Virus record (IMG/VR): IMGVR_UViG_3300044591_001745
Span: 21,201-85,200 of that record
Origin: a virus
Length of the DNA: 64,000 bases
Reading direction: 5' to 3' (one strand)
Under the pieces are notes generated by a model that was not told where the DNA came from, made no database searches, and saw only the letters and a list, made by a program, of their open reading frames with translations. Shown here in pieces: positions 11,022 to 26,000 of this stretch (position 1 is its first letter; each line of letters starts with the position of its first letter). The position numbers and the translations under genes are program-made.

Positions 11022-14000
11022 TCATTTTGGTTTAAAGTTGAAACTACCTTCTGACTGCTTATTCATATTCTCAAAGGCTCTATCTACTTCACCTCTAACA
11101 AGCTCCTTAACTTTTTCTTCCATATTATTGAAAGTAGCGGTTCCATTAATATTCACGTTTACCTCATGTTTTCCTGTAATGTTAATAATTGGTGGAACAT
11201 TAAGCTTGGATAAAGTTTCCGCAAATTGAGTGAACTTGGTGGTAAAATCTCCTAAAGCTGTTAAGGCGGTTTCATCCAGTGTAATATTGCCAATATTTAA
11301 TCCACCTAGAGCTTCTCCAAAAGCAGTAACGCTAGTTTCAAACTGTTTAATAGCGGTCAATGTAGCGCTATCAAAGCCCATACTATATGAACTAGATACA
11401 CCGCCAGAGGATCCACCACCTTTATTTTCTCCACCACCACTAAAATACTTGGGATTAATTACTCCTCCGCGACTAGCATAACTAACAATCTGACCAGTGG
11501 TATTATTTCCATTATTAATGGCTTCTAAAATTGGCAAGTATCTTTGAGTGGAGTCTCTATTGATAACAAATTCGCCGGGGGTTAACATGGCTGGAACAGT
11601 ATCTGTTCCTTTAGGAGACCAATTTACAGGAGCAGCGCCTCCATCAGCACGATAAATAAGCCCTCCCTTGGCTTTATTGACTGCATTTCTTGTTTCTTCT
11701 TCTGTGCGTGGAGCTTCTGATGGAGGTACCTCAGCTTGATTAGGAGCATTTTTTGCTGCCTGATTAGCTACGTCTTCTGCGGTTTGCGGTTTAGGCTGAG
11801 ACGCAGCCTGAGCTTCTTTTTCTTGAACAGCCTTTTCTCTCAATAATGCCTCAACAGTATTTGTAGTGCCAGCTTTTCTATTCTTATTATAATAAAATCC
11901 ATACAAAGTGGGTTGTGCATATGGCATAAGATTTTCATCGTATATTTCCTGTAATCCAACCATTCCTGGACCACCTTCGCCATCGACAGTTAGGCCAGAG
12001 AAATTAGTAAATGCTTTATTAGCTGGCTCATAATTCATCTTCATTTTATTCCATAATTCATTACCTTTCTCAGTAAATACTCTTGGTAATGCATCAGGAG
12101 ATAAATTATTATCGTAAAAATCTAAAACTTGTTGTGCGGTAGCTTTCATCTGATCGCGTTTTTCAAAATCTTCTGGTGCTGTCGGAGATACGCTACCAAC
12201 AAATTGATTAACAAGGCCAACGAAAGCATTTTTATCTTTTAATGCCCCTATAAATGTTTCAGCATTAACGTCTGTCGGTGGAGTGATTTTTGCTTGGGTA
12301 GCCATAGCCGTTAAGGAAGAGATCAAACCATTCACTGATGGAACTACAGCAGGTTCAAATAGCTGCTCTCCTTCGCCAGCAACTGGACGCATCAAAAGAT
12401 CATCTCTATCCGTTAAGAAATCTCTTAGTGATATTAATTGTGGAGAATATTCTTCCCACAAACCAGCCCACCCAGCTGTTCCCGGATCTTTACTTTGTGT
12501 CCACTTTCTTGCATAAGTATCTGCATTTTTCCATAAAATATTTCCCAAAGTTTCTCTATATTTAGGTTCATAAACTTTACTGTCGTCTAAAAATTGAGTT
12601 AATATATCGTCTATTGTTTCTGGAATCTGTATGTCTTCTGTTCCTGTTGCTGTAGCAACCTTCATCATCATCATGTCAGGATCTGCTGTTTTTCCAGCCA
12701 TAAACTCTGAAGCTTTTTTCTCTGATCCAAAAGCAGCGAAGTTAGATTGTAATAATGCCATTTGTTCAGAGCTTATTTTGGCTAAATTATTGCCTGTCAC
12801 TAATTGTTTAAAGCGTTGTGCTGTGCGTACTTGATTAGCAAATCCTAAGATATAATCAACAAATTTTGGATCCCTAACAACTTCTGGAACATTCCAAAAC
12901 TTTTTAACTAGCTCTTTGCCTGATCTTTGATCTGTTTCTTTTTCTTTGAGTAGATATTTTTCTAGATTACCAGATTTAGAAAATAACGTATAAAGTCTCG
13001 TGCTTGCTTGTCCAATAGATGTTCCTTCTGATATTGGTCGTTCAGCATCAGATGCTAGTTGACTAAAAAATCTGCCAGCGCTCATATATTGACCAAGCGC
13101 TCCTTCAGAAGCTAAAGTCTCAACTTTTTCTCCTTGATTTTTATCGTAAGCTTCCTGTTCCAATTGCAAAGCTTTTCCTTTAACCCATGAGATATAATCA
13201 ACGGCTGCCATTAGATCGTCTTGAGTGCTGATACTTCCCGGAGGAGCTACTCCATCATTAGAAGCAGCCTTAGCCCAATCGGCAGCACTAGATAATGAGC
13301 CCATAGGAATATTAATATTTTTAATCTTGCTCCAAACAGGAGCAGCTAGCATAGGAATTTGTTCAGACTTAAAGTGAATTAAACTGGCTTCTTTTTCCAT
13401 CTGGGCCTGTCTAGTCTTTCTGTCTGTCAAAGCTTTCCTAGCTACAATTCCTTGAACTAGTTCAATAATATTAGGAATTTTAGCTAAAATAGGATTCTTG
13501 GCATCTTCATAAACCGGATTAAGACCCGACAGGAAACTATCGGTATAGAACAAAGCATTTTGTCTTAATAAATATGCAGCAGCACTATCCTCAGCATCTG
13601 ACCCTTGAGCTTGATCTTGTCCAGGCTTGGCTTTTCTGCTGGTTCTAGCACCTCTGACATATTCAGCTGACTGCATAGCAGCCTCTGCCATAATAGGCTG
13701 ATATCCACCAGCTAAAGTCATGCCAAGAATACCCCAATCTGGAATATTAAAATTAGCCAAGGCCCATTCATTGACGGCAGCTTCCATTGCTGCTTCACTG
13801 CTATAATATGGCAATAATTTTTCTGCTCCTGGTCCCATAGATTGAAAAGGATTAATTCCTCCTTCTGCTTTATTGCGACCAATAATGTGGACACCTTTCA
13901 TTGGAGTGTCGGATGGCTCAAAAGGAGGTCCGGGTAAAAATTTAGTTTTGGTTTGACCATCTATATCTACCGTGGCAGGATCTAATAGAGGAATTTGTTC

Positions 14001-23000: not shown

Positions 23001-26000
23001 AGAGTATTGGGGAATATTTGGTTTACCATTAGCATCTAAAATGTCCCCACCAGAAACCAAAGTCTCATCGAAATCAAAAACAAGAGAACCACCATCAAAA
23101 ATATCTGCATATTGCACATTCTCCGCTAATCTTATAGAAGATTCAGAAGTTTCTTGTTGCATTTGACGAACAGCATTAAGGTATTTACCTTTGAATCCCC
23201 TAACATATGCATAAATATTTTTTGGATCTTTATCTGTACCGATATTCCACTCAAAATTTTTATTGTAATCTAAAGCATTATTAGAATCAACTAGTCCTGC
23301 TACAGCAACTTTCGGCAGTCTAGATATTCTTTCTACTTCGGCAGCACTTTCAATATTCCCAGCAGATAGTGCCCTATCGATTACTTTTGCCGCTTCTTCT
23401 ATTCTCCTGCCCTGTTTGAGATTACTAACTCTTAGCAAGCTATCTAATTCTCTGTCTCCACCGCCTACTCCTAGTATTTTTTTAACTCCAGCTATTTTAC
23501 CAAGAGCTTCTAATTCTTGAATTATAGTATCTTGCAAGCTTTGACCTCTTTGTTGCGCTAGTTCTGCAACTCCTCCTATAGAAAATTTTTGTATTAGTCC
23601 TCCTAGATTAAATCCTGGAATACCGGCCGCTCTTTGTTTTTCTATCCATTGATAAAATTGTTTCTTTTGATCTTCTGCCCAAAAATAATCTAAGGTTCCT
23701 AACATTGCTTCATCTATAGAAGATCCAGAAGACTGTTCTTTAAAATAGGAACCAATAGATTTTTTATCTATTCTGTATCTTAATAATTTGCTAACTAAAT
23801 CCATATCATCTGTTGGTATAGATCTAAATTTAGCTTCTCCAATAGCGTCTATAGAATTATCTTTAAGTTTTCTAACAAGATCTATAGGATAGTCAGATTG
23901 GTTGCTGGCACTTTCCCATTTGCCAGATAATTTGGCTGCCAATACTTCTTCATATGCTTTACCCCATCGGCCTTCAGCGCTCATTAGTTTGCCAACAGAA
24001 GATTCCCCTGTAGCTGGAGGAGCCTTCCTTCTTCGATCTGATTGTCTAATTTGTCTTAATCTATCTCTATTTTCTGGACTAACATCAACGCCTTCATAGC
24101 TTTTATACTTACCACCACCCATTGAAGCCGAGGCGTTTGCTGTGTCCCATATTTTTTGAAAATCTTCTTTTTCTGTTAATTTTACCGTTCTTCTATTAAT
24201 TCTAATAGCAGCTTTGTCTGCTAATCTATCATTCGCTGATTTTTCTATATTGGATGCTGGGAACAATACTGAATTAATTGTATTAGATCCGGAGCGACCC
24301 AGTAATTCATCTATTGTAAAATATTCCGTTAGTCCACCGGCAGCAAATTTTTTAGCTTGTCCTTTATTTATTGCAACAAGATTACCCTTACCATAAGCCT
24401 GTACTGCTTTGCGATTAACAACAAATTCTCCGGGTTCAAGCATGGACGGAACTCTATCTCCTCTGCCAGACCCAGGAACACTACCGCCCTTAGCAAACTT
24501 TAATATACGACCACCACTGTTAGCGGTAACAGTTCCTCCACCGCCTCCGAAATCTGTACTAGCAATAGTATTATTCAGAGCAACAACCTCATTGGTCAGC
24601 TGAGCAATTGCGCTATTTCCTAAATTATCTATGGATGCTTGTAGTGGAGTTATAGCCCCTGCTAATGCACCCATAGTTGAGCCCAAATTATTTAGCGCTG
24701 TAGTATTAGCGTCTAAATACCTAGAATTGTCTGTAACGTCCGCCGCTGCCCTATTATTTCTAGCAGATGATGCCGCTCCTCCTCCTTGGTCTCCTGGTTT
24801 AACTTTTTGCAGACCACCGACGAATCCTCCAACAAAACTTGTTAAAGCCTTAGCTCCTTTAATAGCTCCGATAGTAGCAAGAATAGGGAGTAGTGGTCTA
24901 GCAACATCAGCAACTTTGATAAAAGTGTTTGCTAATGTTAGTCCTAAGCTTACTAAGGTCTGAAAACTATCGCTTTTGCCAATTTCTCTGATAAGGGCTA
25001 CAAATGACTCTCTGGTTTTACTAAATTGTACTGCTAACGATGCTTGTGCTTTTATGGCATCAGCGGCTAATGAATTTTGTCCTCTTTGAGCAACGGTCAA
25101 GGCTTGTTGGGCTGTGCCGAACTCCTGAATTAACGGCAGCACCTTGCCAATCTGTCTAAATCCACCAAGTTCTTCTACTATTCTGGAAAAGCTAACATCT
25201 CTAGGATCAAGCTTGCCTAGACCTTCACTTAATAATTGTACAGCCTTATACGCCCCTACGAATTTACCTTGAACATCTAATAAATTAACTCCATACTCTT
25301 TAAGAGCTTCGATAGTATCTTCTCTTTGAATACGAGTAAAAATTGTTCTTAAACCGGTAGCGATAGTTTCCGCACTTTCACGAGTTGTAGCACGAACGCT
25401 TGTGAATACCGCGATGAATTCATTTAATGCGTCTGTACCTTCGCTTACTCCTTTACTGGCAGCAGCAAACACACCACCGGTACGTTGAATAGCAGTAATA
25501 ATATCACTAGCTTCGACAGCAAATCCAGCAGCAACAGCATTTATAGAACCTAGGGCATTATCCAAGTCTTCTGTACTAATTTTAAACTGTCTCATCAAAG
25601 CAATACTTCCTTCGACAGTATTATTCAGATCATCGAACGATGGAGCTAGAGCTGTCAATGCTAATGCTCTCAACGCTTGGTCTGTTTCTCTTGCGCTCAA
25701 ACCAGCCTGAGCCAATGTGTCTGATATGCGAATTAAATCACTGGATGCAACTCCAAGCCCTGTTGATAATCCGGTTATGGTATCTGTAATTCTATTTAAT
25801 TCATTATATGATTCGCCTGTAATTTGAGTTAATCTGACTAATTGTCTATCAAACTCTATAAATTCGGATGTAGCCTTGCTTACAGCATTATAAAGTCCAT
25901 AAATTACTGATGTAGCAGCATTAAACGCAGCAAATCTACGAACAGCCAGAGCAGATTGGCGACCAAACTCTTCCATTTCGTCTTTGGCTTCTACAGTATT

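What the first reader, a model, noticed from the sequence alone, without database searches (positions are those of the whole stretch)
11430..24525. About 19 [F/Y/K]xxGG motifs, often paired, mark the domain boundaries of the TMP: candidate processing or sorting signals
Seen: ANSGG-RILK-FAKGG (~24,500), FAAGG (~24,340), FNLGG-LIQK-FSIGG (~23,590), FAGGG (~22,370), LQTGG-FAEGG (~21,105), YAGGG (~20,970), FNKGG-AIGIQK-FADGG (~20,830), FARGG-TVTY-KAVGG (~16,390), YAKGG-PVKY-LAEGG (~16,230), KAKGG-LIY-RADGG (~11,660), ASRGG-VINPKY-FSGGG (~11,460). They cluster at the edges of the globular cargo blocks and are not evident in the helical ruler segments. Established: some TMPs (lambda gpH) are proteolytically matured, and single FAxGG motifs are common near TMP C-termini. 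Inference: the multiplied di-glycine motifs are cleavage sites that release each cargo as a separate protein, and may also be homology points for cargo exchange.
Basis: partly seen in the sequence, partly recalled or inferred. Interest (0 to 1): 0.85.

Follow-up and report, generated by a model that had tools for sequence, protein, structure and literature searches.

The report
Glycine joints in a giant tape measure
The short aromatic-x-x-Gly-Gly motifs are real: they are the edges of a conserved joint that divides this 5,109-residue phage tail "ruler" protein into a fixed backbone and swappable inserts, and they resemble the places where phages T5 and lambda cut their own rulers, but no cutting has been shown here.

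Summary
Observation confirmed. All 19 listed motifs are present in one 5,109-aa ORF (11022..26351, minus strand), a tape measure protein (TMP) by its PhageMin_Tail domain. They exceed chance: [FY][AS]xGG occurs 10 times in the TMP against 2 times in the other 22,408 aa, and 0 of 2000 shuffles reach that count.

The motifs are not free-standing. They are the Gly-Gly edges of a ~65-aa module (GG-x4-FAxGG-VPGxGxxDTVPAMLTPGEFV-helix-[YF]AxGG). It occurs five times here, and a mini-form marks the other cargo junctions. The module profile hits 20,812 protein clusters. It matches lambda gpH (aa 712-804) and has no Pfam family.

Homology with relatives breaks at the motifs. One insert is bracketed by them in 12 of 12 related loci, in several different contexts.

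Cleavage is untested. Two facts favour it. The mapped T5 pb2 cut (after R1127) lies inside R|AEGG. Lambda's unmapped gpH cut falls at or just upstream of its FATGG. Against it, no protease was identified here and both AlphaFold models were weak.

First reading: partly supported. This scan reached the same conclusion on at least 12 other genomes.

The parts
11022..26351 (-). Whole ORF, 5,109 aa: giant tape measure protein (TMP)
   Evidence: Single open frame. Pfam PhageMin_Tail at aa 190-384, E 1.1e-22. PHROG TMP families over aa 48-576. 93 giant relatives, 10 of them colinear.
24525..26351 (-). aa 1-609: TP901-type TMP N-terminal core
   Evidence: 61-78% identical over the N-terminal HSP to the ten close relatives.
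24333..24524 (-). Joint module A (aa 610-673): ANSGG-RILK-FAKGG ... PSMLEPGEFV ... FAAGG
   Evidence: Alignment A1. Local hmmsearch E 1e-28. PHROG_35029 at aa 615-663.
23613..24332 (-). Cargo block 1 (aa 674-913), function unknown
Evidence: Shared only with P0005 among the ten relatives. No Pfam or PDB sequence match.
23571..23612 (-). Mini-joint (aa 914-927): FNLGG-LIQK-FSIGG, without the PGEFV core
   Evidence: Homology breakpoint at aa 915-938. An equivalent motif bracket is present in 12 of 12 related loci.
22377..23570 (-). Cargo block 2 (aa 928-1325), HAD-phosphatase-like (weak support)
   Evidence: VFDFDETL and ILTARP invariant in 13 sequences. AF2 pLDDT 60-85 only for the core. Foldseek gives only weak HAD rows, E 0.05-0.1. 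No Pfam hit.
22362..22376 (-). Mini-joint (aa 1326-1330): R-FAGGG-IV
   Evidence: Breakpoint at aa 1332-1335. In L084 the same position is FADGG, which runs straight into module B.
21684..22361 (-). Cargo block 3 (aa 1331-1556), present in only some relatives
Evidence: Absent from P0004, P0006, P0008, P0010 and P0011, where the flanks abut. No PDB sequence match.
21669..21683 (-). Degenerate joint (aa 1557-1561, ILGDG)
   Evidence: Aligns with FAEGG (P0007) and FASGG (P0005) after the shared ...P(S/T)NIE.
21123..21668 (-). Cargo block 4 (aa 1562-1743), function unknown
   Evidence: Start of the long colinear block in 5 of 10 relatives.
20808..21122 (-). Double joint module B1+B2 (aa 1744-1848): LQTGG-FAEGG..., YAGGG..., FNKGG-AIGIQK-FADGG
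   Evidence: E 5e-18 and 1e-16. Conserved as a double module in all ten close relatives.
16410..20807 (-). aa 1849-3314: long motif-free segment (presumed ruler)
   Evidence: No [FYW]xxGG. The B-to-C distance is conserved: 1467, 1473 and 1487 aa in the query, P0002 and P0003, computed from the module coordinates. Helical nature not tested.
16206..16409 (-). Joint module C (aa 3315-3382): FARGG-TVTY-KAVGG ... PAMLTPGEFV ... YAKGG-PVKY-LAEGG
   Evidence: E 3e-30. AF2 monomer model.
11676..16205 (-). aa 3383-4892: conserved block with a Gly-rich hydrophobic stretch
   Evidence: 40-51% identical in ten relatives. No family match.
11430..11675 (-). Joint module D (aa 4893-4974): KAKGG-LIY-RADGG ... 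PAMLTPGEFV ... ASRGG-VINPKY-FSGGG
   Evidence: E 3e-29. It sits 135 aa from the C-terminus, where lambda gpH has its module.
11025..11429 (-). aa 4975-5109: C-terminal tail, presumed tail-tip anchor
   Evidence: Inference from T5, lambda and Douge, where only the last 32-42 TMP residues are resolved, in the tail-tip or baseplate hub.

Best explanation
SHOWN. The motifs are the Gly-Gly edges of a conserved TMP joint. Its full form is a ~65-aa module: GG-x4-F-A-x-GG, then V-P-G-x-G-x-x-D-T-V-P-A-M-L-T-P-G-E-F-V, then a short helix ending L-x-x-(M/I)-N, then (Y/F)-A-x-GG. Five copies lie in this 5,109-aa tape measure protein.

A mini-form, GG-x-(I/V)-Q-(K/R)-F-A-x-GG-x-V, stands alone at the other cargo junctions. 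The giant protein is an ordinary TP901-type TMP that grew by insertion of cassettes at these joints, each insertion leaving a joint on both sides. The joints are the seams at which relatives gain, lose and exchange inserts.

INFERRED. The joints are Gly-bounded seams that separate independently folding segments while the protein lies in the tail tube and is expelled ahead of the DNA.

The last joint (module D, Y-R|A-D-G-G around aa 4901) is probably a maturation site of the T5/lambda kind. There the TMP body is cut free from a C-terminal piece that stays anchored in the tail tip.

Whether the internal joints are also cut, which would make the protein a true polyprotein, remains open.
For: - TMP identity.
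- Five aligned copies.
- Module conservation over 79 sequences: D, G, E, F, V in 79 of 79; N-side GG in 79 and 76 of 79; C-side GG in 75 and 73 of 79.
- Breadth: 20,812 representative proteins at E<=1e-3 and 929 at E<=1e-30. The best 150 are all 2,289-7,872 aa with 4-11 copies. 226 giant TMPs carry 3-10 copies, median 5. In cultured phages, 109 records match, annotated as TMP wherever the listed record is annotated.
- Same module in known phages: lambda gpH aa 712-804 (22 bits, E 7.7e-9 for that one protein); twice in mycobacteriophage Douge gp16.
- Seams: 4 of 5 query breakpoints lie at motifs and the fifth at a degenerate one. The HAD-like cassette is bracketed in 12 of 12 loci, with at least 3 upstream and 3 downstream contexts.
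- In 80 of the 226 proteins compared all against all, HSP ends lie within 5 aa of a motif in 14.6% of 1,697 cases against 2.9% for random positions. HSP starts do so in 7.2% of 2,278 against 3.0%.
- Orphan [FY]xxGG outside modules: 767 against 320 +/- 16 in shuffles, with a shared extended logo.
- Selection acts on the protein. Module DNA copies are 55% identical per column and differ at synonymous sites.
- Cut at the terminal joint: the T5 site lies inside R|AEGG. The lambda cut is in the Gly-rich zone beside its module. In DT57C the C-terminal TMP fragment stays in the tip after ejection.
Against: - There are no protein-level data for this phage or any relative, so no cut is shown.
- The AF2 monomer model of the module is weak (mean pLDDT 64.7, pTM 0.29). 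The motifs lie in low-confidence coil, so neither 'hinge' nor 'strand' is established.
- AF2 of the HAD-like cassette with both flanking motifs failed (mean pLDDT 42), so the motifs are not shown to lie outside folded domains.
- Part of the breakpoint enrichment may arise because conserved modules anchor alignment ends.
- Some 'orphans' may be module flanks beyond the 10-aa margin, or degenerate modules.
- T5 pb2 does not match the module profile.
- Relatives P0230-P0232 (about 2,520 aa) have no module near their C-terminus, so a terminal joint is not universal.
Confidence: 0.6

Rival explanations
1. Full polyprotein. Most or all joints are cut, by a phage, host or self-contained activity, so that each cargo is released as a separate protein in the virion or after ejection.
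For: - The T5 cut lies inside R|AEGG.
- Lambda's cut lies beside or at its FATGG. A 14-kDa fragment would start at aa ~706-725, and a cut after FATGG leaves 12.1 kDa.
- A Gly-rich junction (NGGGNSGGGD) is a known processing site that removes the lysin domain of TP901-1 Tal (PMC11409707, passages).
- Mini-joints lacking the PGEFV core are kept at cassette borders across relatives of 36-58% identity over that cassette. This argues for a function of the short motif itself.
- The invariant Asp and Glu in the module core leave room for a self-processing element.
Against: - No termini data exist.
- No protease was recognised. Prok-JAB gave 0 matches in the record. The record is an estimated 54% of a genome, so absence is weak evidence.
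- P1 would have to be F, Y, K, R or L, which is unusual for one protease.
- Only T5 and lambda TMPs are known to be cut, each once.
Confidence: 0.25
2. Docking or assembly elements that are never cut at internal positions. Each module would bind a partner (tail assembly chaperone, tube lumen or the other TMP chains) and keep the chains in register on both sides of non-helical inserts. The FAxGG turns would be structural.
For: - The core is far more conserved than a linker or a cut site needs.
- Copy number rises with protein length: 3-10 copies in proteins of 2.3-7.9 kaa.
- B-to-C and C-to-D spacing is constant among relatives.
- AF2 gives a hairpin plus a confident helix inside the module, with pLDDT up to 89.
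Against: - No partner was tested.
- This reading does not explain the mini-joints that lack the core.
- In the lambda and Douge virion structures the module region is not resolved, which does not favour a fixed docking site.
Confidence: 0.15
3. Chance or composition. A Gly- and Ala-rich protein produces such pentapeptides by accident.
For: The protein is 9.2% Gly and 11.8% Ala, and GG dipeptides are frequent (73).
Against: 0 of 2000 shuffles reach the observed counts. The motifs are conserved in position in ten relatives and in 79 aligned modules.
Confidence: 0.01

Closest known systems
Phage lambda tape measure gpH and its maturation to gpH* plus gpHC
   Same: gpH carries one copy of the same module (FATGG ... 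PAGIVHRGEFVF ... YATGG, aa 712-804), about 60 aa from its C-terminus, like module D here. gpH is cut in the Gly-rich zone next to it (PMC12617516, passages).
   Different: Lambda has one copy and no cargo. Its N-terminal domain is TMP_2, not PhageMin_Tail. Its cut site and protease are still unknown, so it cannot yet confirm the motif as the site.
Phage T5 tape measure pb2, cut after R1127 into pb2* and pb2C
   Same: The mapped cut lies inside FVPR|AEGGMMYPG, an x-A-x-G-G-x-x-x-P-G string like F-A-x-G-G-x-V-P-G here. The query has Y-K-A-V-G-G and Y-R-A-D-G-G in modules C and D. The cut separates the body from an enzymatic or anchor piece.
   Different: There is no detectable homology to the module (hmmsearch not significant; hhalign E 0.27 over 13 columns). 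T5 has a single site. The paper's supplement showing the site was not available to me.
Thermus phage P23-45 gp96, a 5,002-aa TMP fused to a virion RNA polymerase
   Same: A giant TMP that carries an enzyme acting in the host (PMC10770324, passages). It is a precedent for cargo in a ruler protein.
   Different: One N-terminal enzyme, with no repeated joint described. In the passages found, 'proteoly' and 'full-length' do not occur, and the only 'cleav' hit concerns removal of an expression tag. I did not compare the sequences.
Mycobacteriophage Douge gp16 (1,699-aa TMP, PDB 8ZDO)
   Same: Two module copies, at aa 963-1025 and 1412-1461 (E 1.8e-6). It is a cultured phage with a multi-joint TMP.
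   Different: Only aa 1658-1699 are resolved (PMC13033339, passages). Nothing is known about processing.
TP901-1 / Tuc2009 tail-associated lysin Tal, processed at a Gly-rich junction
   Same: A glycine-rich motif at the junction between a structural part and an enzyme domain of a tail protein is a processing site (PMC11409707, passages).
   Different: A different protein (tail tip, not TMP), a different motif (NGGGNSGGGD), and a single site.
Polyvalent proteins of phages and conjugative elements (Iyer et al. 2017)
   Same: Large virion-borne proteins that string together several effector-like domains and vary by domain shuffling (PMC5512222, passages).
   Different: That paper does not contain the word 'tape' (0 occurrences). 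Processing there is ascribed to built-in Zn-peptidase domains, none of which was found here. The cargo identities here are unconfirmed.

Membership tests
Tape measure protein, TP901 family (Pfam PF10145 PhageMin_Tail) | PhageMin_Tail core domain near the N-terminus | tested here: met
   aa 190-384, 81.4 bits against a cut-off of 33.2. PHROG TMP families 4211, 28 and 14917.
Tape measure protein, TP901 family (Pfam PF10145 PhageMin_Tail) | Placed between tail tube/chaperone genes and tail-tip genes in a late structural operon | tested here: inconclusive
   Same strand as the terminase (53396..55432), an HK97-fold capsid protein (weak) and a cement protein. The immediate neighbours have no family match.
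Lambda-type TMP joint module (part of TIGR01541; no Pfam family) | N-side F-A-x-G-G, core P-x-x-x-x-x-G-E-F-V, helix, C-side (Y/F)-A-x-G-G in that order | tested here: met
   Five copies. A profile of 79 modules matches lambda gpH aa 712-804. TIGR01541 covers gpH 472-813 but does not reach the query. Pfam Tape_meas_lam_C covers only gpH 627-701.
Proteolytically matured TMPs (lambda gpH, T5 pb2) | A shorter mature form and a C-terminal fragment demonstrated in virions | not testable with these tools
   This needs protein chemistry. [quoted passage not shown]
Proteolytically matured TMPs (lambda gpH, T5 pb2) | Sequence at the cut resembles the motif | tested here: met
   T5 is cut at R1127|AEGG. 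The resemblance is at motif level only. The lambda site is unknown.
Viral polyprotein with a cleavage code | A cognate protease encoded or recruited | tested here: inconclusive
   None was recognised: for ORF 49599..51143; for Prok-JAB; inside the TMP. The record is about 54% complete.
Polyvalent proteins (Iyer et al. 2017) | Several recognisable effector or enzyme domains in one virion protein | tested here: inconclusive
   No cargo block has a Pfam, PHROG or NCBIfam hit. There is only motif-level and weak fold support for a HAD-like block. Precomputed Pfam labels or source names on relatives include ART-PolyVal (PF18760), and a source names one 'endonuclease YncB (thermonuclease family)'.

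The most novel reading that the evidence does not exclude
The joint is a general 'cut here' code of tape measure proteins. The conserved module, with its invariant Asp and Glu, directs cleavage, possibly self-catalysed inside the assembled tube, at the x|A-x-G-G bonds on its flanks and at the mini-joints. Lambda's long-unmapped gpH cut would then lie at F733|A734 (or at the paired YATGG). Giant TMPs would be true polyproteins that unload a train of separate, exchangeable enzymes into the host ahead of the DNA.
Probability: 0.2. Interest if true: 0.85.

Novelty: new variant of a known kind. Interest (0 to 1): 0.6.

Why it matters
TMP cleavage has been known in lambda since the 1970s. Even so, a 2025 paper states that its site and its protease are unknown (PMC12617516, passages).

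A module present in about 20,800 protein clusters, found once in lambda and carrying the same x-A-x-G-G string at which T5 is cut, gives a concrete site to test in lambda, T5 and cultured multi-joint phages such as Douge and the Gordonia, Nodularia and Brevundimonas phages.

If the joints are cut, giant TMPs are a delivery train for ready-made, swappable enzymes. That would be a second route, beside capsid-packed proteins, by which phages bring effectors into the cell. If they are not cut, the joints still define where foreign domains are tolerated in a ruler protein, which is useful for phage engineering.

I found no description of the module or the motif in print. 'GEFV' with 'tape measure' gave 0 papers, and the six papers holding both 'tape measure protein' and 'polyvalent protein' did not concern it by their listings. 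The searched library lacks most subscription journals.

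Tried and rejected
Solved structure of the module. phmmer of modules C and D against PDB sequences gave only chance rows. The profile search found Douge and lambda TMPs, but the module region is unresolved in both.

AF2 monomer of module C with 79 sequences. Low confidence. It shows only that the module is not a confident autonomous fold.

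AF2 of aa 905-1345 with 13 sequences. Mean pLDDT 42. The Foldseek search of that model gave nothing at E<=1e-3. The question whether the motifs lie outside folded domains stays open.

Trimer prediction of the module.

Genomic context of relatives through the look-up of encoding contigs. Not obtained.

Protease hunt. Prok-JAB in the record gave 0 matches. The idea came from my recollection, unchecked here, that lambda gpK has a JAB/MPN domain and that such peptidases cut after Gly-Gly. ORF 49599..51143 has no protease signature.

Cargo identification. No PDB sequence match for aa 1331-1745, and one chance-level row for aa 675-915.

Natural split genes at joints. The 'shorter' search gave six proteins of 2,516-2,733 aa. 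Five look like smaller whole TMPs. One (P0227) ends inside a module, which looks like a frameshift or truncation and not a split at a motif.

Recent duplication or gene conversion as the source of the repeats. Rejected: the DNA copies are diverged.

Homology of T5 pb2 to the module. Rejected.

The P1 virion paper holds nothing on TMP cleavage. The M23 review does not document the Tal cut. My memory of a GG cut in Tuc2009 Tal is therefore given only through the TP901-1 paper.

Papers. I saw only search listings and 'find' passages, never whole texts. Supplements were closed, including the T5 figure and table that show the R1127 site.

Full report
WHAT IS THERE. Window 11022..26351 (minus strand) is one open frame of 5,109 codons. 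It lies in an 85.2-kb linear IMG/VR virus record that CheckV rates at about 54% complete. The product is a tape measure protein (TMP). Pfam PhageMin_Tail matches aa 190-384 (E 1.1e-22) and three PHROG TMP families cover aa 48-576. Nothing else in the protein matches Pfam, PHROGs or NCBIfam. No phage in the GenBank collection is close at the DNA level.

Fourteen of them fit [F/Y/K]xxGG. The other five (starting A, L, L, R, A) were counted because they sit 3-6 residues from a partner.

The stricter form [FY][AS]xGG occurs 10 times in the TMP and twice in the 47 other ORFs of the record (22,408 aa). For each of four patterns, none of 2000 residue shuffles of the TMP reaches the observed count. 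No aromatic-x-x-GG lies in aa 1849-3314 or aa 3383-4968.

WHAT THE MOTIFS BELONG TO. They are not free-standing. Five stretches align with each other: aa 610-673, 1744-1797, 1793-1848, 3315-3382 and 4893-4974.

I aligned three of the window copies with 76 modules taken from IMG/VR loci; 548 of 596 pattern matches there were confirmed and 80 loci were kept. The columns read as follows:
- GG (64 and 58 of 79), then x4, then F (57), A (50), x, GG (79 and 76).
- Then x, V (76), P (75), G (77), x, G (75), x, x, D (79), T, V (73), P (78), A (76), M (67), L (78), x, P (78), G-E-F-V (79 each).
- Then a short helix ending L (75) x x M/I N (77).
- Then Y/F (71), A (46), x, GG (75 and 73).

Two places carry the turns without the core: FNLGG-LIQK-FSIGG (aa 914-927) and R-FAGGG (aa 1326-1330).

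HOW WIDESPREAD. A profile of the five window copies, run against 1.84 billion representative proteins, finds 20,812 at E<=1e-3, 5,229 at E<=1e-10 and 929 at E<=1e-30. The best 150 are all 2,289-7,872 aa long with 4-11 copies.

Among cultured phages, 109 records match, led by Gordonia (70), Nodularia (9), Brevundimonas (7), Ralstonia (6) and Burkholderia (6). Wherever a listed record is annotated, the match lies under a TMP.

In the PDB sequence set the profile finds mycobacteriophage Douge gp16 (two copies, E 1.8e-6) and, weakly, lambda gpH. With the 79-sequence profile, lambda gpH matches at aa 712-804 (22 bits, E 7.7e-9 for that single protein): FATGG ... PAGIVHRGEFVF ... YATGG.

Pfam has no family for the module. 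Tape_meas_lam_C covers gpH 627-701 only. TIGR01541 spans gpH 472-813 but does not reach the query.

No structure shows the module. Lambda gpH ~690-817 is unresolved, and only Douge gp16 1658-1699 is modelled (passages).

THE JOINTS ARE SEAMS BETWEEN CASSETTES. A search restricted to long proteins gave 93 relatives. Ten of them (P0002-P0011, 5,257-6,696 aa) are colinear with aa 3250-5109 at 40-51% identity. All ten have five modules at equivalent places. The B-to-C and C-to-D distances are nearly constant. The A-to-B distance runs from about 1,070 aa here to about 2,570 aa in P0003, computed from the module coordinates.

BLASTP of the query against the ten breaks at aa ~667-683, 915-938, 1332-1335, 1561 and 1741-1749. 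Four of these are at motifs. The fifth...PSNIE-ILGDG, aligns with ...NIET-FAEGG and ...NIET-FASGG in P0007 and P0005.

In five relatives the block ending R-FEVGG or R-FAVGG abuts the sequence that follows aa 1561 here. So aa 1331-1556 is an insert placed at a joint. In locus L084 the equivalent FADGG is itself the first turn of module B.

The HAD-like cassette (aa ~928-1325) is bracketed by an x-x-x-GG turn on both sides in 12 of 12 IMG/VR loci. These show at least three different upstream and three different downstream neighbours; several of the loci are near-duplicates.

More broadly, I compared 80 of the 226 stored giant TMPs all against all. Ends of alignments of at least 150 aa lie within 5 aa of [FYW]xxGG in 14.6% of 1,697 breakpoints, against 2.9% for random positions. 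Starts do so in 7.2% of 2,278, against 3.0%. Conserved modules anchoring alignment ends may contribute to this.

Outside the modules, the 226 proteins hold 767 [FY]xxGG against 320 +/- 16 in shuffles. These orphans share the logo N-x-GG-K-(I/V)-Q-(K/R)-F-A-x-GG-x-V.

The DNA of the five copies is diverged, with 55% mean column identity and synonymous differences inside identical peptide stretches. The gene holds no long exact repeats. Conservation is therefore at the protein level, and the copies are not recent duplications.

ARE THEY CUT? This cannot be tested with sequence tools.

Three published facts bear on it (passages only):
[quoted passage not shown] The precise site, and how the cut is catalysed, are stated to be unknown (PMC12617516). 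By my mass calculation a 14-kDa piece would start at aa ~706-725, that is 8-27 residues before FATGG. A cut after FATGG would leave 12.1 kDa.
- T5 pb2 is cut after R1127 (PMC10038345). In the T5 record that residue sits in FVPR|AEGGMMYPG, an x-A-x-G-G-x-x-x-P-G string like F-A-x-G-G-x-V-P-G. Modules C and D here read Y-K-A-V-G-G and Y-R-A-D-G-G. pb2 has only two A-x-G-G strings in 1,219 aa, so the coincidence is unlikely by chance. It is still only a motif-level likeness: the module profile does not match pb2 and hhalign gives E 0.27 over 13 columns.
- In DT57C the C-terminal TMP fragment stays in the tail tip after ejection (PMC10713586). That gives a reason for a terminal cut.

A Gly-rich junction is also a processing site in TP901-1 Tal (PMC11409707).

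Against cleavage at all joints:
- No protease is recognisable in the record.
- P1 would have to vary between F, Y, K, R and L.
- Only one cut per TMP is known anywhere.
- The near-invariant core of the module is more than a cut site needs.

STRUCTURE. AF2 on module C with 79 sequences gave mean pLDDT 64.7 and pTM 0.29. It showed a weak hairpin (aa 3328-3339) and a helix (aa 3352-3369, block pLDDT up to 89). The FxxGG turns lay in coil of pLDDT 50-70.

So as a monomer the module is not a confident globular domain, and the motifs are not predicted to be buried. The model is too weak to count as evidence for a linker. AF2 on aa 905-1345 failed.

VERDICT. The motifs are the Gly-Gly turns of a very widespread, unnamed TMP joint module and of its mini-form, and they mark the seams of swappable inserts.

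The cleavage reading is partly supported by analogy. It is strongest for the last joint and open for the internal ones. 'Sorting signal' has no support.

The scan has reached the same reading on at least 12 other genomes. One of those notes, on a 5,292-residue protein of a 238-kb phage, matches my P0008 in length and contig size.

Precedents are the giant enzyme-bearing TMP of P23-45 and the cut TMPs of lambda and T5. The repeated joint with swappable cassettes is a new variant of these known kinds.

Noticed in passing
window 11022-26351 (-): The 5,109-aa TMP has no cysteine at all (His 11, Trp 42), although the other ORFs of the record have about 8.5 Cys per 1000 aa. 193 of the 226 stored giant TMPs are also cysteine-free. 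This fits a protein that is stored extended, expelled and refolded outside the cytoplasm, but it is unexplained.
   Followed up: partly
G000:C1 10758-18547 (outside the window; L082 10758-14213 and 14213-18547, minus strand): Two very large ORFs (1,151 and 1,444 aa) downstream of the tail genes carry RCC1-like beta-propeller repeats (E 1.4e-97 and 4.3e-62). One also has an Ig domain. They are probably host-binding fibre proteins.
   Followed up: no
window 3537-11003 (-): The ORF directly after the TMP is 2,488 aa. Its only hit is a sub-threshold antifreeze-type beta-roll repeat (PF21300, 24.8 bits against a cut-off of 30). ORF 35981-39196 has the same repeat (32.8 bits).
   Followed up: no
Its aa ~217-459 give only coiled-coil-like rows. 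It may be a scaffold or protease-scaffold fusion, but that is not shown.
   Followed up: partly
window 48110-49596 (-): ORF 49144-49596 matches phage cement / minor capsid families (E 7.6e-07). ORF 48110-49120 weakly matches an HK97-fold capsid model (E 6e-05, below cut-off).
   Followed up: no
protein P0227 (relative, 2,540 aa, contig 226.8 kb): This relative ends in the middle of a joint module (...PAMLTPGEFVVN... followed by a short hydrophobic tail). It looks like a frameshift or assembly break inside a larger TMP gene, not a natural split.
   Followed up: partly
proteins P0230-P0232 (relatives, about 2,520 aa): These smaller TMPs of the same family have two modules and the same HAD-like cassette, but no module near the C-terminus. 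The terminal joint is therefore not obligatory in the family.
   Followed up: partly
window 23060-23102 (-), aa ~1084-1100: VFDFDETLVSGG and, further on, RILTARP are invariant in 13 aligned sequences. They look like HAD phosphatase motifs I and II; the motif names are recalled. Pfam gives no hit.
   Followed up: partly
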